Positions 1-8,981 of a stretch of 41,667 bases of DNA are shown one piece after another. A program made the position numbers and the translations under genes. The DNA comes from a virus (taxonomy: Duplodnaviria > Heunggongvirae > Uroviricota > Caudoviricetes). The notes beneath the pieces are model-generated. The model had not been told where the DNA came from, made no database searches, and saw only the letters and a list, made by a program, of their open reading frames with translations. The stretch is taken from IMG/VR virus record IMGVR_UViG_2841729706_000003, positions 1-41,667 of that record; one strand, given 5' to 3'. Positions within the stretch are counted from its first letter, which is position 1. Each line of letters begins with the position of its first letter.

Positions 1-522
1 TCAATCGCACCAGCTCTGACGACGACCTGTCCACTGCCGCGCAAGACCTTCCTCGACCAGCATCGCGCCGACGCTGACACCATCGATCTCAATCACCGCC
101 AGCGTGCGACCGTGCCGGTCGACAAGCCTGCCGTCGAGCGGATCGCCTCGCTTGATCTCGAATGCGCCTGGGCCGAGCAACTCGGCCAGGCGGTCGGCGG
201 CAGCGGCCGCACCCACGCGCTCCCGTTCGCACCGTGCTTCCGTTTCGGGCGTGTCGATGTCCGCCAGCCTGATCTTTTCGCCTTGAATCCAGACGGTATC
301 GCCATCAACGACGCAAGTGTGCCGCTTTGAACTCGAACATAGCTCGAAGGCCGCCGCTGGCGAAGCCAACGCACCGACCAAAGCAATGCTCAATAGGGTG
401 ATTCCGACCTGGAGGCGGTTACGATCAGATAAAATCGAATCGCTTAGAGCCGCCACAAAGAACCCTCTTTGGATCTCCGCCGTACCATATTCACTATCTG
501 CGCTGGTCGATGAGCTTTGCAA
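1..522 (-). CDS. Thermonuclease (SNase-like) family protein, probably exported; start uncertain and likely downstream of 522
   Basis: VVDGDT...IRLADIDTPE...DRHGRTLA...LVEEGLA are SNase motifs. A hydrophobic signal-like stretch (LLSIALVGALASPAAA) precedes them. Stop TGA at 1-3. Confidence 0.85.
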   Translation of the reverse strand: MQSSSTSADSEYGTAEIQRGFFVAALSDSILSDRNRLQVGITLLSIALVGALASPAAAFELCSSSKRHTCVVDGDTVWIQGEKIRLADIDTPETEARCERERVGAAAAADRLAELLGPGAFEIKRGDPLDGRLVDRHGRTLAVIEIDGVSVGAMLVEEGLARQWTGRRQSWCD

Positions 523-1735
523 TATTCCCCGATATGGACAGGTCCGGTGCGGCGTCCTCTTTCACAATCCCGTCCGCAGTAGGGCGGAATAGAGAACTGA
601 GAACGATATGACGGTCGTCCGTGCCCTCGGTTGCCTTCTCCGCGATGAGAGCGAGGTATGTCATCACCATCGTCTCCCTTTCGCGAGCATCCATTCCCAA
701 ATGAAGCTCGCTGAGGTAGAGCCGGACCAAGACCCTTCCAGCCCAGAAGGCGACGGTCGATACCACTACGCCAATTGTTGTCAGTATCAGGAATACAGCT
801 GCTGGCCGTTGAACGACCTCATTATTGTGCATAACTGGCTCAGCGAACTCGAAAGCCACACACGCGAGCACCGACAACGCAACCAGCAACGCCAACGTCG
901 CCAGGACTGCATAATAGGTGACGATAGTTTGGAGCCCTTTTGCCTTTCCTTCATGCTTTGACGCTTTGTTGCTCCAGTATTCGACCGGAGCCTTCAAAGC
1001 CATTTGTTCGCGATAAGCCGCCTCGACAGCCTTAAGGTCCGAGATTGCCGTTGAAATGTCCGATACGGCCTTCGACTTTTGCACTCTTCGTCGTGAAGCC
1101 GCCCAACGGGTGAGGACCGTCTGCCGTTTCTGCGCCTGACCAAGCAACGCTGCCGTCGATGCGGCAAGTTCGTTGTAGTTTTGATGGTCGGTTTCCGCCT
1201 GCGCCCGGAAGCGCTTGCTGACCGCATCCATTGCACTCTTCGCCGCGTAAGGGGTGCGCCTATTTATGCCAAGTCGATAGGTGCCAACGGCAGTTGCGGC
1301 CAACAGATGTTCGGGATCATTGGCATTGATCGAACGTTTTAAGATTATGGCCAGCGCTACCGTTGCGGCGGTATCGCCCAAAGCCTCCCGAGTATTTCTA
1401 ATAAAACTCGCATCCTCCGTCGAGCTGTGAAGAATCTGCCGGCTACCAGACGTCGGAGCGTAGAGCTGCTCGACATGAGCGACAAAGGCCTCCCGACTGA
1501 CCGACCCATCCTGAACGCCAACGACATGCGCTCTAAGAGTTTTCAGCGAGCTGCGAGTGATATTTGGAACATCTGTCCCGGACCGGGACGCGTTCGGCTC
1601 TTCATAAATCCACTCCCAAAACTCTGTCTCTTCGTCCACAAAAGACAGCAACTCATCTGCTGTCTTGGCACGAAACACCCCTCCGTTGTCTCCAAGGTCC
1701 CAAGACAAGAAAGGCTCTATATTTATCTCGTCCAT
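494..1735 (-). CDS. DUF6161-like coiled-coil protein with two C-terminal TM helices
   Basis: KAPVEYW..KA..H, two TM helices, then RLYLSELHL..DARER.TM..TYLAL and SLFRP..DGIVKED. The ATG at 1735 has a GGGGGG SD-like run and is preferred over the TTG at 1801. Confidence 0.7.
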   Translation of the reverse strand: MDEINIEPFLSWDLGDNGGVFRAKTADELLSFVDEETEFWEWIYEEPNASRSGTDVPNITRSSLKTLRAHVVGVQDGSVSREAFVAHVEQLYAPTSGSRQILHSSTEDASFIRNTREALGDTAATVALAIILKRSINANDPEHLLAATAVGTYRLGINRRTPYAAKSAMDAVSKRFRAQAETDHQNYNELAASTAALLGQAQKRQTVLTRWAASRRRVQKSKAVSDISTAISDLKAVEAAYREQMALKAPVEYWSNKASKHEGKAKGLQTIVTYYAVLATLALLVALSVLACVAFEFAEPVMHNNEVVQRPAAVFLILTTIGVVVSTVAFWAGRVLVRLYLSELHLGMDARERETMVMTYLALIAEKATEGTDDRHIVLSSLFRPTADGIVKEDAAPDLSISGNIAKLIDQRR

Positions 1736-1744
1736 ATCACGCCC

Positions 1745-1785
1745 CCCGACACTTCTAAGAGACGCTACTTTGATTCCCGACACTT
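1745..1785. repeat. Perfect 10-bp direct repeat CCCGACACTT, two copies 31 bp apart
   Basis: Copies at 1745-1754 and 1776-1785, just upstream of the DUF6161-like start. Confidence 0.85.
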
Positions 1786-1924
1786 TGCATCGATTGTTCA
1801 ATATCTGTCAGAGCAAACGTTGAATCTTGCTCATTTCAGCAGCAAGGCCCGCACGGCCTGTGATGTATGCTCGGGCGTCCGCCGACATGCCCGAAGCGGT
1901 GCATATCCGCGGTCTTGGCTTCGC

Positions 1925-2851
1925 TCAAGACTCGCTCACACTCCGGTCAAAGGACTGGCCGGTCGCTTCGTTCAAGGTGGGCAGCCTTGAGAGTTCGCCA
2001 CGCATATGCCGCAGCCAGGCTGACCACTCCGTTACCGGCTGCGAGGGCGCGGTCCATCCGATCGGCCATCCCATCAGCCAGTCCGAGAAGTTCGGGTTGA
2101 AGATCAGGTCGCCCGGCGAGTACCGCGTCCCAACGGTCAAATTCAAATGGAGCGGGAGCGAAGAGTGGAAGCGATACGCCCCGAACCGGCCCGCGCCGCA
2201 GGCCTTCATGATCAGGTAGATCATCGTCCACGCCCTGGCGACCTTGCCGAGCGCCAACTGACTGCCCGTCTCGTCCGGATCGTCCCTGAAGCGCAGGCCC
2301 GTCGAAGACATCTCGATCTGGACCTTGTTCGCATAGAGCGTCCGGGTCGGCGTAGGCCACAATGAAGAGGCGCCGCCGCAGGTGCGATGCGCCAGCTTCG
2401 AGCGCTGAAAACAGGCCTGCTTTGACCGCGTAGCCCATTTCCCGAAGGTCTCGGCAGACTTCGGCGGCGCCCAGATCGAGATGGCCCTCGACGTTTTCGA
2501 AAAAACACCAGACTGGCCGCACCTCCTCGACGATGCGGCGGATCGACGGCCAGAGATGCCGGGGGTCGTCGGCACCCTTTCGCCGGCCAGCGAAGGAGAA
2601 GGGTTGGCATGGATATCCGCCAGCGACGAGATGAACCTTGCCGCGCCACGGTCGGCCGTCGAAGCTGGTAACATCGTCCCAGACAGGCGCGTGATCCAGC
2701 GCCTGGTCCTCCATCCGGGCCACGAGGGTCGCCGCCGCGTAGGCTTCCCGCTCGACGAAACAGACAGTTCGATATCCGGGTTCTGCGATATGGAGGCCAA
2801 GCTCCAGTCCGCCAACGCCGGCGCAGAGCGCGATTCCTGTGAGTTGATCAT
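1925..2851 (-). CDS. Overprinted +1-frame ORF (308 aa): candidate TRD/motif-IX (beta-like) chain of the MTase
   Basis: Stop-free frame across the whole MTase gene. It carries LWPTP (2348-2362) and FNPNFSDWLMGWPIGWT (2051-2101). The ATG at 2851 overlaps the com stop (ATGA). The true start could be further downstream. Confidence 0.6.
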   Translation of the reverse strand: MINSQESRSAPALADWSLASISQNPDIELSVSSSGKPTRRRPSWPGWRTRRWITRLSGTMLPASTADRGAARFISSLADIHANPSPSLAGERVPTTPGISGRRSAASSRRCGQSGVFSKTSRAISIWAPPKSAETFGKWATRSKQACFQRSKLAHRTCGGASSLWPTPTRTLYANKVQIEMSSTGLRFRDDPDETGSQLALGKVARAWTMIYLIMKACGAGRFGAYRFHSSLPLHLNLTVGTRYSPGDLIFNPNFSDWLMGWPIGWTAPSQPVTEWSAWLRHMRGELSRLPTLNEATGQSFDRSVSES

Positions 2852-2882
2852 TTCCGGGGGGAGATAGAGCCACACGAGACAT
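1947..2882 (-). CDS. C5 DNA cytosine methyltransferase, catalytic (alpha-like) chain at the Mu mom position
   Basis: Motif I CAGVGG, IV GGYPCQPFS, VI FFENV, VIII HLRRRLFIV, X AGNGVV. No motif IX in this frame. SD GGAAAGGG; the start lies inside com. Confidence 0.93.
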   Translation of the reverse strand: MSRVALSPPGNDQLTGIALCAGVGGLELGLHIAEPGYRTVCFVEREAYAAATLVARMEDQALDHAPVWDDVTSFDGRPWRGKVHLVAGGYPCQPFSFAGRRKGADDPRHLWPSIRRIVEEVRPVWCFFENVEGHLDLGAAEVCRDLREMGYAVKAGLFSALEAGASHLRRRLFIVAYADPDALCEQGPDRDVFDGPALQGRSGRDGQSVGARQGRQGVDDDLPDHEGLRRGPVRGVSLPLFAPAPFEFDRWDAVLAGRPDLQPELLGLADGMADRMDRALAAGNGVVSLAAAYAWRTLKAAHLERSDRPVL

Positions 2883-3036
2883 CCCTTTCCAGTCGCTCTT
2901 GGCGCTCGGGTTCGGGCTCGTTTGGCCTCAAATGATTGACCGTGCCGCAGCGGCGGCACTTGATCTCGATTTCGTTGGTAGCGCCGCTCATCCTGAAGAG
3001 CAAGGCTCGGCATTTGCCGCATCGGATATCCTTCAT
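2848..3036 (-). CDS. com: Com-family zinc-ribbon translational regulator
   Basis: MKDIRCGKCRALL...IEIKCRRCGTVN (CxxC...CxxC), 62 aa, directly upstream of and overlapping a DNA-modification gene, as in Mu com-mom. Confidence 0.92.
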   Translation of the reverse strand: MKDIRCGKCRALLFRMSGATNEIEIKCRRCGTVNHLRPNEPEPERQERLERDVSCGSISPRK

Positions 3037-3173: not shown

Positions 3174-3938
3174 TCAGGCGATGCGATATGATCCAGCCAC
3201 GCGAATACCAATGGCGTTCGTCGAGGGCAGAATATTCGCGATCCCCATCGCCACGACGCTTGCCGCCGAACGCACGCTGTAGAACCATATCTGGTTGGTG
3301 TTTGCCCTCGCAAAGGCGACCGCCCACCGGTCGAGTGCGTTCAACGTCACCATGCTCAGGAAGGGTGATGAACCGGGATCAAACCCAAGATCAGCGTCGT
3401 TGACGACAGGAAACGGCAATCCACCGATATAGAATTGTCCCGCAGCCGTGGTGTAGGCATTCGAATTGAACCCGACATAAAGCCAATAGTGACAAACCCC
3501 GCCGATCAAGACGTAGCGCCCCACTTGCGCGGTATAGGTCGGAACGAAGTTGCCGGGCGTGGTGAAATTGCCCGTGGGAGTGAAATTGCCGCTTTCTCTT
3601 TTGGCCAGACCGCTATCCCAGGACGTGCCGAATGTCAGAAGGACACCTTCGTCCTCGACCCAGCAAAGCCACCCGCGTCTGGGCACAAGCTTAACCCAAG
3701 CGCCATCTGTATAGAGCGCGATGTTGTGGTCCCATCCAGCCCAGGCGCCGGTCGCGCCAGAGGCGGGTAAATAGACGTCCCCCTCGGATGGCGTCCCCGG
3801 AGGAGCGGTCAGGTCACGGTCCTTGACCGAAAGCTGCACGATCGTGTCCAGCTTGCGCAGGCTTTCATTGACTGGAACGTGCTTCTGCGCCTGTGCCGGC
3901 GCGATCAGCGGCAAGTTGAGCTTCGTCGTCGTGGTCAT
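3174..3938 (-). CDS. DUF2793-domain fibre/spike-associated protein with a variable C-terminal domain
   Basis: MTTTTKLNLPLIAPAQAQKHVPVNESLRKLD...PPGTPSEGDVY...GAWAG...GAW..LVPRRGW..WVEDE. SD GAGGGT before the ATG at 3938. Confidence 0.88.
   Translation of the reverse strand: MTTTTKLNLPLIAPAQAQKHVPVNESLRKLDTIVQLSVKDRDLTAPPGTPSEGDVYLPASGATGAWAGWDHNIALYTDGAWVKLVPRRGWLCWVEDEGVLLTFGTSWDSGLAKRESGNFTPTGNFTTPGNFVPTYTAQVGRYVLIGGVCHYWLYVGFNSNAYTTAAGQFYIGGLPFPVVNDADLGFDPGSSPFLSMVTLNALDRWAVAFARANTNQIWFYSVRSAASVVAMGIANILPSTNAIGIRVAGSYRIA
3537..3590 (-). repeat. 3 x 18-bp imperfect tandem repeat encoding GNFTPT-GNFTTP-GNFVPT
   Basis: Read directly; it sits at the junction between DUF2793 and the C-terminal domain. 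Confidence 0.85.
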
Positions 3939-3948
3939 AATAGCACCC

Positions 3949-5091
3949 TCATTCGAACATCCAGACCCAAACCATGCCGGTAGCACCCGCGCCGCCGGCG
4001 CGGCCGGTCGCCGAGTTCGCGACCACGCCGCCGCCGCCGCCATCGCCGCGCGCAAAGCCGGCCTGTCCGGCCGAATTGCCGGCGAAGCCGTTGCCGCCGC
4101 CCGCCAGCATTGCCGCCGGCGCGCCGCGGCCGGCGGCGCCGTTCTGCATGTCCAGGCGGATTCCAGGCGCGCCGGGTGAGCCGGTCACGTTGAAGTCGCC
4201 GCTCGACGCGGAGCCGCCCGAACCGCCGGCAACGATCTGGCCGAAGTTTCCCGCCGTCTGGCCGGCCCCGCCGGTGCCGCCAGTCGCGGAGATATGGGAG
4301 CCGAAGGTGGTCGTGCCGCCGGTGCCACCAGTACCGCCGGCCGTGGAGCCGGCTGCACCGCCGGTGCCGATCGTCACCGCCACCGACGCGATCGACGACA
4401 CGTCGATCCACTTCCAGCCGAATCCGCCGGCACCGCCGCCGGCGCCGCAAGCGCCGTTGGACGCTCCGCCCTGGGCACCGCCGCCGCCACCGCCTGCGCC
4501 CCAGCAATAGACAAGGATGCGGCGAATTCCCGTTGGTTTCGTCCAGGTGCCGGACGCGATGAATGTCTGCTGCGCGCGCAGGATGCCTGCCGGGATGTTT
4601 GCCGTGGTCACCACGCGGACGGAGTTGACATAGAGGCTGGTGCCGTCTCCGGAGAGCGGCGTCCCGCCCAGCGCTCCGCCGGCGGCATTCAGCGGCGTAT
4701 AGCCCAGCCGGGCCGGAATGTTGGTGAAATAGCCGCTGTCGAAACCGTCGAGCTGGTCGGCATCGAGGCCGGAACCGGCGCCGTCATTGCCCTGATGCCA
4801 AACCTTGAACGCCCAGACATACATATCGTCGCTGTCGCCGGTCAGGCGGGTTCCGCCGAGTTCGACGAGCGGCACCTCAAGCGGGCCGGTCATTGCGCCA
4901 CCGAACCGGGACAGCTTCGCATCCAGCGCGTCGGCAAGGCCGACGATATCGCCCATGCCATGGGTATGAATGGCGGGCGCGTAATCGCTCGCCTCTTCAA
5001 GCGGCCGATAGCGCTGTCCGTCCCAGAACTCGATGCGGCCCGTCGTCTGGTTGTAGCCAAGCCACGATGTTGTGAGCTGGGTAACGGCCAT
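3949..5091 (-). CDS. Tail fibre-like protein with a C-terminal glycine-rich domain
   Basis: HTHGMGDIVGLADALDAK and VWHQGNDGAGSGLDADQLDG fibre motifs; QTFIASGTWTKPTGIRRILVYCWGAGGGGG Gly-rich domain. The ATG at 5091 overlaps the upstream stop (TGATG). Confidence 0.82.
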   Translation of the reverse strand: MAVTQLTTSWLGYNQTTGRIEFWDGQRYRPLEEASDYAPAIHTHGMGDIVGLADALDAKLSRFGGAMTGPLEVPLVELGGTRLTGDSDDMYVWAFKVWHQGNDGAGSGLDADQLDGFDSGYFTNIPARLGYTPLNAAGGALGGTPLSGDGTSLYVNSVRVVTTANIPAGILRAQQTFIASGTWTKPTGIRRILVYCWGAGGGGGGAQGGASNGACGAGGGAGGFGWKWIDVSSIASVAVTIGTGGAAGSTAGGTGGTGGTTTFGSHISATGGTGGAGQTAGNFGQIVAGGSGGSASSGDFNVTGSPGAPGIRLDMQNGAAGRGAPAAMLAGGGNGFAGNSAGQAGFARGDGGGGGVVANSATGRAGGAGATGMVWVWMFE

Positions 5092-8000
5092 CAGGGAAAC
5101 GTCCCCGGAATGCCGCGGCCGAAAGTGGCGCTGATCTGGTGGACGCGGAACGCAATCGACGTGATCGGTCCACCGAAATCGGCGGCCTGGTCGGCAACGC
5201 GGTAGAGCCATGCCGGCGCGCCGAGACCGAGAACAGTGCGGGCAACCGAGGCACCATTCAGGATTTCGATCTCGTAGCGCTCGAATTCCTCGCCCAGCGG
5301 CACCTCGGCAGCGTCCCAGCTATCGCCGCCGATCCGGGTTCGCCTGATCCATTTCAGCAGGAAGTCGCCGTTCGTCTGGCGGGTGGCGCGCAGGTGAACG
5401 GGCGAAAGGGGCCGGCGGCCGCGGCCGCGAAGCGTGATGGTCGACTGACTGACGCCCGGATCGGAGACGCCGCGATCGGCAGCACCGACGCGCCAGTTGA
5501 GCGGCATGCCGATGAGGCTGGCCGGAACCGATGCCTGTCCGACAGCCTGATCCAGCACGAGCACCCGCGCGCCCGCAGGCACCGGATCGCGCATCGCGTG
5601 TTCGGTGCCTCTTTGCCCGCGCAAAAGATCGGTCAATACCCAGGAGCGCCCGCCGATCGGCGTTGCGGTCGCGAACTGCAGCACTTCCCACTCGCCGACC
5701 TGGTTCTCGATCATGAAGGCGTTGGCGCCGTTGAGGACCGCAAGTTCCGACGCCGAGGTCAGCGTGCCGCGCTTCAGGTCGACATAGATAGAATTGACAC
5801 GGTCCCATCGCACGGTGGGGCCGCTGTAGACATCACCGATGGTCTCGCCGATCGCGCCAGGAACCGGAATGAGGGTGTCCAGCTCGAACCCGGTCGCTGC
5901 CGGCGAACGCCACAGCGCCACCCCGGAGCGGAAGGGCGACATAAGGCCGGCAACATAGGGCGCGTGTGGGGCGTCCTCGTCGCGCAGCAAGGCCGTGTCG
6001 GCAATCACGGCCTCGGCCTGGAGGATGGAGACGACCGGCGCAATCGCACCGGCGCTCGGTTCCGAATCGACCGTGCCGCCGGCAAGCGGGTCAATCTCGA
6101 ATGCCTCTATCCGCCGCGCCTGCGCTTCGCCTGCGCTATCGACTCGCACCGGATGGCCGGACGGCGCGAAGGCGATCACGTCGCCGGGATCGATCGCCAG
6201 GCGCGACGGCGGCAGTGTGAAGGCGTAGCGTTCGCGGCCGACCCATGCCGCATGCAATTCCAGCTCGGCGATTTCGCGGGCGCGTGTATCGGCCATGACG
6301 ACAGGCGGCGAGAACTCTACGACCCGCTGCGACCCGCCCGAAGAGCGGCGCGCTTCGCTGGAACCGGCCTGATCGTCGCGCGCCTGGTCGCCATACTTGA
6401 TCTTGATCGCATCGGGCAGCTCGGTTTCCTGCGCCCGCGTCCGGCGGAACCGCGGCGCATCCGGGCTGTCCGGGTTTATCACCAGCTCGTCGGCCGTGAT
6501 GGTGGCGACCGGCGCGCGGCCGTGTCGGGCGAGGAATTTCATAACGCCGTCGCTTTCGACCGCATCGAACTGATAGGCCGGCCGAAGCGAGTCGAGCAGC
6601 GAGCGCGGCGAAATCACATTGCCGACTGTGATTCCGTCGACCACGCCGGGGATCGGTTCGATCAGCCGCAGGCCGAAACCCGCCTCGTCGAGAATGGTTC
6701 GGATCGTCTCGGGCGCGGGTGCGGCACCCATGCGGCCCGAAAGCCAGTGTCCAGATTGCCAGTTCTGCCAGTCGCCCCAGAAATTGCGGCTGATCGGAAA
6801 GGACGGCCAGGGCCGCGAATCCCACGCCCAGATGTTCGACCGGGCGAGATCTATCATGCGCCCGCCGTAGACGGACGAAACCGGGTTGTTTGCCGCCGTG
6901 TTGTAATAGCCGATCATCGCCTGAAGCCACGATCGTTGCATCTGATCGTCGCGGGCGCGGGTCGAGTACCAGGGCAAGCCGCCTTCCGACGAAATGCGGT
7001 CGGGAAAGATATTCGGCTGGTTCGCGCCCTTGTCGACGGCGCCGCAGCCCATCTCCGTGAAGCGGATCGGCTTGGACATCGGCGTCCAGGCGGTCGCGGC
7101 ACCGCTACGCACGCCGCCGGGCCGGTTGCGATGCGCGTTGCTCCACCATCCCCGGATATCCTTGTTCCGGTAGACGAAGGGTTCGTTGTAGGCGCCGTCC
7201 GCGATCGGGGCGCGGGTCTGGGCGTCGCGCGCCGCCTTGCTGGCATAGTACCATGCGTAATGTTCACCACCTTCGACATTCGAGCGGAGATACGCCTGGT
7301 CGTAGATCGTCGCCGGCCCGGCCGGGTTGAAATCCAGATGACCGGAACCATCGCGCCAGTCCGACAACGGCAGATAGTTGTCGATGCCGATGAAGTCGAT
7401 ATTGGCGTTCGACCAGAGCGGATCGAGATGGAAGAACACGTCGCCCGATCCGTCGCCGGGCCGGTGGCTGTGATACTCCGACCAGTCGGCCGCGTAGGAA
7501 ATCTTGGTGGCGGCGCCGACGATCGAGCGGACATCGCCGGCAAGTGCTGCAAGCGCGGTCACGAAGGGATAGGCCGATGCGCTGGAGCGCACCGTCGAGA
7601 GGCCGACCATTTCCGAGCCGATCAGGAAGGACTCGACGCCGCCGGCGAGCTGCGCGAGCTTGGCGTTGTGCAGCACGAAACGCCGATAGCTCCATTCCGC
7701 CGGCCCCGAATAGGTGACGGTCGTTCCCGATCCGCCGAAATGGCCGGGCGCTGCCGTGCCGACGAAGGCGGAGACCTGCGTGCCGGCGGTGGCCGTCTTG
7801 TCGGGCGAACCCGCAAAACTGGCAGCCGGCGAACAGGTGATGCGCCCACGCCATGGAAAGGCCGGCTGGCCGCTGGCGCCTGCATTGTTGCTGTAAGGGT
7901 CCGGAAGGCTGTTGCCGGGCGGCACGTCCATCATCATGAAGGGCAGAAACATCACGTCCAGCCCGCGCGCCTTCAGCATGCGGATGCATCGGATCACGCT

Positions 8001-8981
8001 GGCGTCGTCGGGCGTGCCGCCATAGGCAGGCTTGCCGTCGACATAGGAGACGATGGTCGCGGTGTCGCGCGTCAATGCGCTGACGCGCCATTGATGCGGC
8101 CGCGTCCTTTTGCGCGACTCTATCTTCGGGCGGATGCTGCAGGTGCCGGCGCGCAGATCGTCGCCGAACCAGGAGACGACAAGCATAACCTGCCGGATCG
8201 ACGGGCAGACCATCTGAAGGCGGTCGATCGACGCGACTATATCCGTCGAAGCGGCCAGCGTGTGGCGGTTCTCGCTCGGCCCGTCGACCTGGTGAACGTA
8301 TTCGGTGTCGAGGCCGTGCTCGTTGCCGGGGATCACCGCCACGCCCCGGACCATCGGCTCCAGATCGCCAACCGGCCGGAACACCTCGGCCGTGATCTGC
8401 GGCAGGCGGTTGCCGTAGTTCGTCAGGTCCATGCGCTCGAAAACGATGTAGCAAAGGCCGCGATAGGCAGGTGCCGCCCCTTCCTTGGCCTCGATGAGCG
8501 GGTCCGGCGCCTGCGTCTCGGTTCCAGTATGGACGCGGAACTCGATTTCCTCCTGGTCGACCTCCTTGCCATCGGCCCAGATACGGCCGACGCCGGCGAC
8601 CGGCCCCTGGCAAAGCCCCACGGCGAAATTGCCGTAGTAGCTGTATGTCGTGGTCTCGACCTTCGCCCCGCCGCCGAATCCCTTGCCGCCGCTCTTTTCC
8701 TTGGTGACGACTTCCTCGAAGCGTGTCGCCCAGATCACCTGGCCGGCGGTGCGCGCCCTGCCATAGATGCGATTGATGACGCTGCCTTCGGTCGATGTCT
8801 GGATGTCGGTCGTCGTCAGGCGCGGCCCCTGGCGCCGCTGCGTCGGCGTCAGCGCCGAAACGATGGCCTGATCCGCGAACGAGCCGACGAGACCGCCTAT
8901 CGCCTGACCGACGAGGAAGGCCGTCGAGCCGACCGGGCCGGCCAGAAACCCGCCGGCAAGACCGAGGACAACAGTCGCCAT
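5091..8981 (-). CDS. Large tail-tip/host-specificity protein (RcGTA g15-like; GTA TIM-barrel plus phage-tail domains)
   Basis: 1296 aa; GPRL...TSTEG..I.RIYGR.R.AGQVIWAT, VVSWFGDDLR, YAADWSEY, IGIDNYLPLSDWRDG, RRPLSPVHL, W.RRTRIGGDSW. Confidence 0.92.
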   Translation of the reverse strand: MATVVLGLAGGFLAGPVGSTAFLVGQAIGGLVGSFADQAIVSALTPTQRRQGPRLTTTDIQTSTEGSVINRIYGRARTAGQVIWATRFEEVVTKEKSGGKGFGGGAKVETTTYSYYGNFAVGLCQGPVAGVGRIWADGKEVDQEEIEFRVHTGTETQAPDPLIEAKEGAAPAYRGLCYIVFERMDLTNYGNRLPQITAEVFRPVGDLEPMVRGVAVIPGNEHGLDTEYVHQVDGPSENRHTLAASTDIVASIDRLQMVCPSIRQVMLVVSWFGDDLRAGTCSIRPKIESRKRTRPHQWRVSALTRDTATIVSYVDGKPAYGGTPDDASVIRCIRMLKARGLDVMFLPFMMMDVPPGNSLPDPYSNNAGASGQPAFPWRGRITCSPAASFAGSPDKTATAGTQVSAFVGTAAPGHFGGSGTTVTYSGPAEWSYRRFVLHNAKLAQLAGGVESFLIGSEMVGLSTVRSSASAYPFVTALAALAGDVRSIVGAATKISYAADWSEYHSHRPGDGSGDVFFHLDPLWSNANIDFIGIDNYLPLSDWRDGSGHLDFNPAGPATIYDQAYLRSNVEGGEHYAWYYASKAARDAQTRAPIADGAYNEPFVYRNKDIRGWWSNAHRNRPGGVRSGAATAWTPMSKPIRFTEMGCGAVDKGANQPNIFPDRISSEGGLPWYSTRARDDQMQRSWLQAMIGYYNTAANNPVSSVYGGRMIDLARSNIWAWDSRPWPSFPISRNFWGDWQNWQSGHWLSGRMGAAPAPETIRTILDEAGFGLRLIEPIPGVVDGITVGNVISPRSLLDSLRPAYQFDAVESDGVMKFLARHGRAPVATITADELVINPDSPDAPRFRRTRAQETELPDAIKIKYGDQARDDQAGSSEARRSSGGSQRVVEFSPPVVMADTRAREIAELELHAAWVGRERYAFTLPPSRLAIDPGDVIAFAPSGHPVRVDSAGEAQARRIEAFEIDPLAGGTVDSEPSAGAIAPVVSILQAEAVIADTALLRDEDAPHAPYVAGLMSPFRSGVALWRSPAATGFELDTLIPVPGAIGETIGDVYSGPTVRWDRVNSIYVDLKRGTLTSASELAVLNGANAFMIENQVGEWEVLQFATATPIGGRSWVLTDLLRGQRGTEHAMRDPVPAGARVLVLDQAVGQASVPASLIGMPLNWRVGAADRGVSDPGVSQSTITLRGRGRRPLSPVHLRATRQTNGDFLLKWIRRTRIGGDSWDAAEVPLGEEFERYEIEILNGASVARTVLGLGAPAWLYRVADQAADFGGPITSIAFRVHQISATFGRGIPGTFP

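What the first reader, a model, noticed from the sequence alone, without database searches (positions are those of the whole stretch)
1925..2882. C5-methyltransferase split across two fully overlapping reading frames
Seen: the 311-aa frame has motifs I, IV, VI, VIII and X but no IX, and its variable region is low-complexity (R/G/D/Q-rich). The +1 frame is stop-free over the entire gene. It encodes LWPTP on the same bases as the end of motif VIII, and FNPNFSDWLMGWPIGWT (motif-IX-like) on the same bases as the first frame's LQPELLGLADGMADRMD, just before motif X. Known: M.EcoHK31I is a two-chain C5 MTase whose motif IX chain is encoded in an alternative frame inside the main gene. Inference: this is a phage heterodimeric, overprinted MTase whose second chain standard annotation would miss.
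Basis: partly seen in the sequence, partly recalled or inferred. Interest (0 to 1): 0.8.

Follow-up and report, generated by a model that had tools for sequence, protein, structure and literature searches.

The report
Two-frame prophage cytosine methyltransferase gene
One 0.95-kb stretch of this prophage is read in two frames offset by one base, one giving the catalytic core of a DNA cytosine methyltransferase and the other a conserved 316-residue partner that probably supplies DNA recognition; annotation records only the first.

Summary
Frame A (window 1950-2873, minus strand) is a C5 methyltransferase with motifs I-VIII and X. Its "variable region" is an unconserved linker. Frame B (+1; 1928-2875) is not a small nested ORF. 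It is 316 codons long and covers the same stretch as A. Its own start codon lies 2 nt upstream of A's (GTGTG), behind one Shine-Dalgarno sequence.

In 22 close homologues and about 8 distant ones (Bacteroidota, Nitrospinota, Beta/Gammaproteobacteria, Acinetobacter and Salmonella phages) the +1 frame has no stop. Eleven single-chain C5-MTase genes from related genomes have 4-26 stops there. Codon-position variability shows that B is the selected frame in the linker and at its own N-terminus, and that both frames are constrained elsewhere.

B carries WPTP and an "LMGWPIGWT" motif that resembles motif IX of single-chain relatives. That homology is not statistically established, and heterodimer formation could not be tested.

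A Com zinc-ribbon gene overlaps both starts. The closest precedent is M.EcoHK31I, but the layout differs. This scan has reported the same layout before on other DNA. I found no family-level description in the papers I could search. Verdict: real dual coding, probably a two-chain enzyme; a new variant of a known kind.

The parts
1947..2873 (-). Frame A CDS: C5-MTase catalytic chain, 308 aa from GTG 2873 (or 311 aa if ATG 2882 is used); stop at 1947-1949
   Evidence: PF00145 E 2.7e-30 over residues 16-179. A profile of the family matches M.HhaI/M.HaeIII through motif VIII only. Homologues begin MAL.. at the GTG.
1925..2875 (-). Frame B CDS (+1 relative to A): 316 aa from GTG 2875; stop at 1925-1927
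   Evidence: No stop in 22/22 close homologues. Conserved along its whole length in 30 sequences (A2). No Pfam family. Codon-position pattern shows selection on B.
2871..2890 (-). Shared initiation region: SD GGAAAGGG (2883-2890), B start GTG (2873-2875) and A start GTG (2871-2873), overlapping as GTGTG
   Evidence: NTGTGGCT is present in 22/22 loci. The first base of B's start is G in 18, T in 3, A in 1 and never C, at a site that is a third codon position in com. An SD-like AAGGA/GGAGA lies 6-10 nt upstream.
2346..2837 (-). A catalytic core, motifs I-VIII (A residues 16-179, counted from ATG 2882; PCQ Cys92 at 2607-2609)
2172..2345 (-). A linker (residues 180-237): unconserved in A and without indels; the same bases encode B's conserved WPTP region
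   Evidence: A identity 0.30 against B identity 0.49. Most variable position is A pos1 (= B pos3), 0.50-0.56.
1983..2171 (-). A C-terminal conserved segment including motif X, GNGVV (2022-2036)
   Evidence: Alignment A1. Dual constraint: all three codon positions show low variability at A 261-280.
2576..2875 (-). B N-terminal conserved half (WLYLP..., SW.GW.TR.W..RLSG....PST...G..FISSL), overlapping A motifs I-IV
   Evidence: B codons 3-6 vary only at B third positions. A third-position variability falls to 0.27 here against 0.45-0.51 in flanking segments. 39% identity to the B protein of a distant member, E 4e-17. AF2 alone gives pLDDT about 30.
1976..2383 (-). B C-terminal domain: LWPTP (2348-2362), beta-hairpin plus helices, motif-IX-like FNPNFSDWLMGWPIGWT (2051-2101), terminal helix
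   Evidence: 600 database relatives at E<=1e-3. AF2 domain model has pLDDT 72. hhalign places the motif on motif IX of single-chain enzymes, E 0.32.
2848..3036 (-). com-like zinc-ribbon gene (62 aa) whose last 25-35 nt overlap both MTase starts, so three frames code at 2848-2875
   Evidence: PF10122 E 2.5e-14. phrog_6417 translational regulator, E 1.6e-14. A com-like ORF ends 19-37 nt past B's start in at least 15 of 23 loci.

Best explanation
The locus is a dual-coding gene that makes two full-length proteins from one mRNA. Ribosomes bound at a single Shine-Dalgarno sequence start either at GTG 2875 (chain B) or at GTG 2873 (chain A). The two starts overlap as GTGTG.

Chain A (308 aa) is the AdoMet-binding and catalytic core of a C5 cytosine methyltransferase, with motifs I-VIII and X. 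Where single-chain enzymes have the target-recognition domain and motif IX, A has only a passive, unconserved linker.

Chain B (316 aa) carries, on the bases of that linker and of A's C-terminus, a conserved WPTP-containing domain and an LMGWPIGWT segment like motif IX. On the bases of A's motifs I-IV it carries a conserved, probably disordered N-terminal half. A and B are proposed to assemble into one active methyltransferase, as the alpha and beta chains of M.EcoHK31I do.

The upstream Com zinc-ribbon protein, whose gene overlaps both starts, probably controls their translation late in prophage induction, as Com does for mom in phage Mu.

Shown: both frames are open and under purifying selection, and B has a conserved start codon. 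Inferred: both are translated, they bind each other, B supplies DNA recognition, and Com regulates them.
For: (1) The +1 frame has no stops in 22/22 close homologues. Synonymous shuffles predict 2.3-6 stops; the +2 frame behaves as the shuffles predict.
(2) Eleven single-chain C5-MTase genes from related genomes have 4-26 +1-frame stops.
(3) Distant members are also fully dual-framed: a Bacteroidales locus at 43% GC (335 and 321 codons), Nitrospinaceae, Paracoccus, Pseudomonas, Massilia, a metagenomic member with 476 and 475 codons, Acinetobacter phage ABMM1 and Salmonella phage S9-5.
(4) In the linker the most variable codon position is A pos1 (= B pos3), and B identity (0.49) exceeds A identity (0.30).
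(5) B codons 3-6 vary only at B third positions, while A third positions are invariant.
(6) B's start is GTG, ATG or TTG in 22/22 loci and never CTG, at a base that is a third codon position in com.
(7) B identity exceeds a synonymous-resampling null in every segment. The excess is smallest in an internal control segment (0.41 against 0.33) and largest at A 31-95 (0.70 against 0.37).
(8) A keeps an open frame through the unconserved linker, including about 210 codons in L036, so A is read through to motif X.
(9) A lacks the TRD and motif IX by Pfam and PDB profiles. Related single-chain enzymes read ..RLQGFPDGWT..R..LGNAV, which is recreated here as B's LMGWPIGWT followed by A's R..AAGNGVV.
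(10) Precedent: the M.EcoHK31I beta chain is encoded in another frame of the alpha gene, and both chains are needed (PMC2836561).
Against: There is no direct evidence of translation of either frame. No protein-protein test was possible.

B has no Pfam family, no PDB sequence match and no structural match (best Z 2.6), so its role as TRD/motif IX rests on a short motif and on complementarity with A.

AF2 predicts B's N-terminal 135 residues with pLDDT about 30, so the function of that conserved half is unknown.

The synonymous-resampling null ignores shared ancestry. The homologues are related, so per-gene probabilities cannot be multiplied.

One single-chain control gene (L045) has a 272-codon +1 ORF.
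Confidence: 0.7

Rival explanations
1. A single polypeptide is made by programmed frameshifting, either A to B after motif VIII and B back to A before motif X, or A to B only. This would recreate the usual order I-VIII / TRD / IX / X. The full-length B ORF would not be translated on its own.
For: The A-B-A mosaic matches the motif order of single-chain relatives. Databases hold ORFs that join A's N-terminal part to B's C-terminal part in one frame (P0162, P0237). Cresawn et al. 2015 left frameshift, ribosome hop or two products open for a related arrangement in Cluster O mycobacteriophages (PMC4351075).
Against: LWPTP and the end of motif VIII use the same bases, so a shift of one base cannot keep both. 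B has its own conserved start codon, and its first codons evolve as B-coded. B's N-terminal half is under selection, which a fusion product would not need. A's unconserved linker stays open, which a fusion product would not need either. I saw no conserved slippery heptamer by eye at either junction; this was not scanned systematically. Two low-efficiency shifts would give little product.
Confidence: 0.1
2. B is a real, translated overprinted protein, but it is not a methyltransferase subunit. It could, for example, be a regulator or a phage-host interaction factor that merely shares the DNA.
For: B shows no detectable sequence or fold relation to known TRDs. Half of B is predicted disordered, as is usual for overprinted proteins.
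Against: A on its own lacks any conserved segment between motifs VIII and X, so it would have no DNA-recognition domain. B's best-conserved motif falls exactly in the register of motif IX. B length variants (WPTP repeats) expand together with A's linker, as expected of a variable TRD. M.EcoHK31I is a precedent.
Confidence: 0.12
3. The second open frame is a by-product of high GC content, codon bias, or an assembly or frameshift error, and carries no information of its own.
For: The gene is 64% GC, and long alternative ORFs are common in GC-rich DNA. Some MAG-derived loci have broken or swapped frames (L016, L025, L029).
Against: Shuffles and the +2 frame rule out composition as the cause. Single-chain controls at similar GC have 9-16 stops. 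A 43% GC member keeps both frames open. The codon-position pattern shows selection on B. The layout recurs in more than 25 independent genomes.
Confidence: 0.02

Closest known systems
M.EcoHK31I (E. coli HK31, YGGCCR; Lee, Kam & Shaw 1995, as described in PMC2836561 and PMC3404938)
   Same: It is a C5-MTase made of two polypeptides. [quoted passage not shown] Both are needed for activity.
   Different: In M.EcoHK31I beta is described as lying entirely within alpha, and alpha is credited with the TRD. Here the two ORFs cover the same stretch (308 and 316 codons) with start codons 2 nt apart. The variable region of A is unselected, and B carries the conserved middle domain plus a conserved N-terminal half. 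I could not obtain the M.EcoHK31I sequence, so I could not test whether it belongs to this family.
M.AquI (two-subunit C5-MTase; PMC3404938)
   Same: The enzyme is assembled from two polypeptides split within the variable region.
   Different: The M.AquI subunits carry I-VIII and IX-X. Here motif X stays with the catalytic chain, and the two genes overlap completely.
Cluster O mycobacteriophage methylase genes (Corndog gp7/gp6; Cresawn et al. 2015, PMC4351075)
   Same: In these phages, cytosine-MTase segments lie in two frames with coding potential in the overlap. The authors noted similar arrangements in other phages and left the mechanism open.
   Different: That case is described as two adjacent, partly overlapping genes. 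No full-length coextensive frames, shared start region or selection analysis were reported.
Monomeric C5-MTases (M.HhaI, M.HaeIII; Pfam PF00145)
   Same: Chain A aligns to them through motifs I-VIII and ends with a GN.V motif X.
   Different: They carry the TRD and motif IX in the same chain, and their genes have many +1-frame stops.
Phage Mu com-mom
   Same: A Com zinc-ribbon gene lies immediately upstream of, and overlaps the start of, a DNA-modification gene at the end of the late (tail) operon.
   Different: The regulated gene is a C5-MTase pair rather than Mom. Com binding and an inhibitory hairpin are not shown (fold z = -0.8).

Membership tests
C5 cytosine DNA methyltransferase (PF00145), chain A | Motif I (AdoMet-binding F/L.G.GG), motif IV (PCQ catalytic Cys), motif VI (ENV), motif VIII (Q/H.R.R) | tested here: met
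   PF00145 E 2.7e-30 over residues 16-179. The family profile aligns to M.HhaI residues 73-177 and M.HaeIII residues 3-163.
C5 cytosine DNA methyltransferase (PF00145), chain A | A conserved target-recognition domain and motif IX between motifs VIII and X in the same chain | tested here: not met
   There is no Pfam or PDB profile match beyond residue 181. Residues 180-237 have A identity 0.30 and evolve as B-coded sequence.
C5 cytosine DNA methyltransferase (PF00145), chain A | Motif X (GN.V) at the C-terminus | tested here: inconclusive
   GNGVV is invariant in 19 homologues, but the Pfam match does not extend to it in this protein.
M.EcoHK31I-type two-chain C5-MTase | Second chain encoded in another frame of the first chain's gene | tested here: met
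   B is the +1 frame of A, open and selected. It is not nested, however: it starts 2 nt before A and ends 22 nt after it.
M.EcoHK31I-type two-chain C5-MTase | Second chain carries motif IX | tested here: inconclusive
   The LMGWPIGWT segment resembles RLQGFPDGWT of single-chain relatives, and hhalign aligns it to motif IX, but at E 0.32 and probability 0.2%. No member hits PF00145.
M.EcoHK31I-type two-chain C5-MTase | Large chain carries the TRD | tested here: not met
   A's variable region is not under selection as protein; the conserved sequence there is in B.
M.EcoHK31I-type two-chain C5-MTase | Both chains are made, associate and are required for methylation | not testable with these tools
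This needs bench work.
M.EcoHK31I-type two-chain C5-MTase | Sequence homology to M.EcoHK31I alpha and beta | not tested
Mu-type Com translational control | Com zinc ribbon encoded upstream of, and overlapping, the start of the modification gene | tested here: met
   PF10122 E 2.5e-14. phrog_6417. The overlap is conserved in at least 15 of 23 loci.
Mu-type Com translational control | An RNA structure that masks the start and is opened by Com | tested here: inconclusive
   The minimum-free-energy fold pairs the start region with upstream sequence, but z = -0.82 against shuffles.

The most novel reading that the evidence does not exclude
A whole, widespread family of phage and prophage C5 methyltransferases is encoded as two full-length same-strand ORFs offset by one base and covering the same stretch (about 240-475 codons). 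Translation starts from start codons 2-5 nt apart on one ribosome-binding site. Both proteins are under selection along most of their length, including a B N-terminal domain of unknown function written over the catalytic motifs. At this locus there is in addition a three-frame overlap with com. If both are translated, these would be among the longest same-strand dual-coding regions I know of in bacteria and their phages. It would also mean that thousands of annotated 'DNA cytosine methyltransferases' are only half of an enzyme.
Probability: 0.55. Interest if true: 0.85.

Novelty: new variant of a known kind. Interest (0 to 1): 0.75.

Why it matters
Long same-strand overlapping genes are considered rare outside small viruses, and annotation pipelines discard them. 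Here about 950 bases appear to encode two conserved proteins over their full length, and the layout recurs across bacterial phyla and phages.

If the two chains form one enzyme, then:
- thousands of database entries describe half an enzyme;
- specificity predictions for these methyltransferases are looking at the wrong chain;
- the family offers a natural system for studying how two proteins co-evolve on the same nucleotides, and how adjacent start codons set subunit ratios.

It also bears on phage evasion of restriction, and on Com-type translational control of a modification gene other than mom.

Tried and rejected
- AF2 on full-length B gave a poor model (pLDDT 46). Searches with it found only single-helix matches, Z <= 3.2.
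- The B C-terminal domain model (pLDDT 72) found no known fold in pdb (Foldseek, no E <= 1e-3), pdb_via_wide (best Z 2.6) or BFVD. afdb_clusters returned only sequence relatives annotated as uncharacterised.
- A PDB sequence search with the B profile gave only a spurious short MS2 coat protein match.
- A Pfam scan of 49 B C-terminal sequences gave no PF00145 hit.
- hhalign of the B domain against 4 single-chain MTases chose the motif IX register, but at E 0.32.
- tblastn of the B C-terminus against the phage collection found nothing at 1e-3, although A-frame relatives there do carry B frames.
- A protein-atlas feature search placed B near PF00145 clusters. The tool warns that a wrong frame over a real gene can do this, so I did not use it.
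- No RNA holder was listed for the locus.
- The Lee et al. 1995 paper is not held. A plasmid search did not reveal M.EcoHK31I.
- The RNA fold of the start region was not significant.
- I rejected ATG 2851 as B's start, and treat ATG 2882 as the less likely A start. The Met at 2851 is not conserved in homologues. ATG 2882 abuts the SD and is absent from the homologues, whose A chains begin at the conserved GTG.

Full report
**Observation.**
The gene lies on the minus strand. Pfam recognises A as a C5 DNA methylase only over residues 16-179 (E 2.7e-30), and finds nothing in the +1 frame. A profile of the A family matches M.HhaI and M.HaeIII through motif VIII and stops at about residue 181. LWPTP (2348-2362) is written on the bases of FIVAYAD. 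FNPNFSDWLMGWPIGWT (2051-2101) is written on those of LQPELLGLADGMADRMD, 14 nt upstream of GNGVV (2022-2036).

**Relatives of frame A.**
More than 4,700 proteins of about 300 aa match A over its full length. In an alignment of 19 of them (57-80% identical to the window's A chain), residues 1-178 and 238-300 are well conserved. Residues 180-237 are almost unconserved yet nearly free of indels. That pattern suggests constraint in another frame.

**Is the second frame kept open?**
- I fetched 35 genomic loci. In the 22 close homologues with an intact A, the +1 frame has no stop within B's extent.
- Shuffling synonymous codons within each gene predicts 2.3-6 stops in +1, with P(no stop) between 0 and 0.05. 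The N-terminal half taken alone also has none, against 1-3.6 expected. The +2 frame has about 10 stops, as predicted.
- Eleven single-chain C5-MTase genes from related genomes (GC 0.40-0.61) have 4-26 +1-frame stops.
- Distant members keep both frames open: Paracoccus, two Bacteroidota loci (one at 43% GC, 335 and 321 codons), Nitrospinaceae, Hydrogenophaga, Pseudomonas, Massilia, a metagenomic contig with 476 and 475 codons, Acinetobacter phage ABMM1 and Salmonella phage S9-5.
- In both phage records only frame A is annotated.
- A few loci are broken or have swapped frames (L016, L025, L029); two of the three are MAG-derived.

**Is frame B selected as protein?**
- Frame B peptides are strongly conserved from SSLWPTPT to WSAWLRRMRGELSRL. 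In a 30-sequence alignment they are conserved along the whole length, with invariant residues in both halves.
- Codon-position variability gives the clearest evidence. In the linker the most variable position is A pos1, which is B pos3 (0.50-0.56), and the least variable is A pos3, which is B pos2 (0.32-0.35). So B, not A, is the selected frame there.
- At A 15-30 and 96-125 the pattern is that of ordinary A coding (pos3 0.45-0.51).
- At A 31-95 and 261-280, A's third-position variability is depressed (0.27 and 0.15), which indicates that both frames are constrained.
- Synonymous divergence in A follows the same profile, with a minimum of 0.08 over the LMGWPIGWT bases.
- Against a null in which each gene's synonymous codons are resampled, B identity is higher in every segment. 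The excess is smallest in the internal control A 96-125 (0.41 against 0.33). It is large at A 31-95 (0.70 against 0.37), in the linker (0.49 against 0.19, above A's own 0.30) and at A 261-280 (0.78 against 0.33).
- This null ignores shared ancestry, so I rely on the contrast between segments rather than on the z-scores.

**Where does B start?**
Every close homologue has NTGTGGCT 6-10 nt downstream of an AAGGA/GGAGA-like Shine-Dalgarno sequence. NTG is B's start (GTG in 18, TTG in 3, ATG in 1, never CTG). The overlapping GTG two bases later is A's start, which matches the annotated MAL... N-termini. The variable base is a third codon position in the overlapping com frame, and usually a fourfold-degenerate one (TCN or ACN), so the absence of C points to start-codon constraint. 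B codons 3-6 (L-Y-I-P) vary only at B third positions, while A third positions are invariant. That is the reverse of what an A-only gene would show.

In the window this gives:
- B = 1928-2875 (316 aa);
- A most likely = 1950-2873 (308 aa);
- ATG 2882 abuts the SD (2883-2890) and is absent from the homologues, whose A chains begin at the conserved GTG.

In more distant members the two starts lie 2-5 nt apart, with B's upstream in some and A's upstream in others.

**What is B?**
- B has no Pfam family. Database proteins that match its C-terminal 148 residues (600 at E <= 1e-3) are either short calls or full-length calls of the same frame, beginning MWLYIP... None of 20 tested carries PF00145, apart from two apparent A-to-B fusion ORFs.
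- Longer members insert WPTP-type repeats in B, and A's linker grows by the same amount.
- AF2 on B alone leaves residues 1-135 at pLDDT about 30 and folds residues 180-270 at 70-77. A domain model from a deeper alignment reaches pLDDT 72: a beta-hairpin, a long helix and two short helices.
- The fold searches (PDB by two methods, AFDB clusters and BFVD) found no known fold.
- Single-chain relatives from related genomes read ...RLQGFPDGWT...R..LGNAV.... Here B reads ...WLMGWPIGWT and A, a few codons later on the same DNA, reads R..AAGNGVV.
- hhalign aligns B's motif to motif IX of single-chain enzymes, but without significance (E 0.32).
- So the statement "B supplies target recognition and motif IX" is an inference from the motif and from what A lacks.

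**Mechanism and rivals.**
- The best reading is two chains initiated from overlapping start codons that assemble into one enzyme.
- A frameshift product (A-B-A or A-B) is less likely. LWPTP and the end of motif VIII share bases. B's own start and N-terminal half are selected. A's unconserved linker is kept open. I saw no conserved slippery site.
- An unrelated function for B cannot be excluded.
- Chance or artefact is excluded.

**Context.**
- The gene ends a prophage tail operon: tail protein phrog_4271 with E = 0, tape measure and fibre proteins. The prophage lies in a 4.84-Mb chromosome that has no other PF00145 gene.
- Immediately upstream is a 62-aa Com zinc ribbon (PF10122 E 2.5e-14). 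Its stop lies 25 nt past B's start, so three frames code at 2848-2875.
- This overlap recurs in at least 15 of 23 loci.
- By analogy with Mu com-mom, Com may activate translation of both chains. The predicted hairpin over the starts is not significant.

**Literature and earlier notes.**
- M.EcoHK31I has its beta chain in another frame of the alpha gene; alpha holds I-VIII, X and the presumed TRD, and beta holds motif IX (PMC2836561, PMC3404938).
- Cresawn et al. 2015 noted overlapping methylase segments in Cluster O mycobacteriophages and left the mechanism open (PMC4351075).
- Six full-text searches found no description of a family-wide two-frame layout in which both ORFs cover the same stretch.
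- This scan has reported the same layout on other DNA many times: 93 notes in at least 91 genomes. My tests here were independent of those notes and agree with them.

**Verdict.**
Dual coding is strongly supported. The two-subunit enzyme is the most likely mechanism, but no experiment has tested it. I class it as a new variant of a known kind.

Noticed in passing
window 2848-3036 (-): A Com-like zinc-ribbon translational regulator (PF10122, phrog_6417) lies upstream. Its 3' end overlaps both MTase start codons, so three reading frames code at 2848-2875. The Com C-terminus (..SCGSISPRK) is written on the same bases as B's VWLYLPPEM and A's VALSPPGND.
   Followed up: partly
L045 (related genome, single-chain 328-aa C5-MTase with motifs IX-X in frame): This single-chain control gene (GC 0.51) has a 272-codon open +1 frame with no WPTP or LMG motif. 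It is the only outlier among 11 controls and is unexplained.
   Followed up: no
L025, L016, L029 (family members): In L025 the A and B motifs swap frames mid-gene (one indel). In L016, A has a single in-frame stop while B is intact. L029 is broken. These may be assembly errors or decaying copies.
   Followed up: no
P0162 (308 aa) and P0237 (378 aa), database proteins: These single ORFs join A's N-terminal catalytic part to B's C-terminal part, by a frame change in the linker (P0162) or just before motif VIII (P0237). They could be natural frameshift variants or sequencing errors. They lack motif X.
   Followed up: no
window 494-1801 (-): A 435-aa ORF downstream of the MTase pair has a DUF6161 domain (E 3e-24) and no PHROG match. 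It may be prophage cargo of unknown function.
   Followed up: no
window 3174-4055 (-) and 3949-5211 (-): A DUF2793 tail-fibre-like protein and a tail fibre assembly-like protein sit just upstream of com. Together with the 1296-aa tail protein (5091-8981), this places the MTase pair where mom sits in Mu, at the end of the late operon.
   Followed up: partly
phrog_1008 and phrog_27243: Two PHROG families (one named DNA methyltransferase, one of unknown function) match the window's frame B rather than frame A. Some phage annotations therefore appear to have called the B frame as the gene.
   Followed up: no
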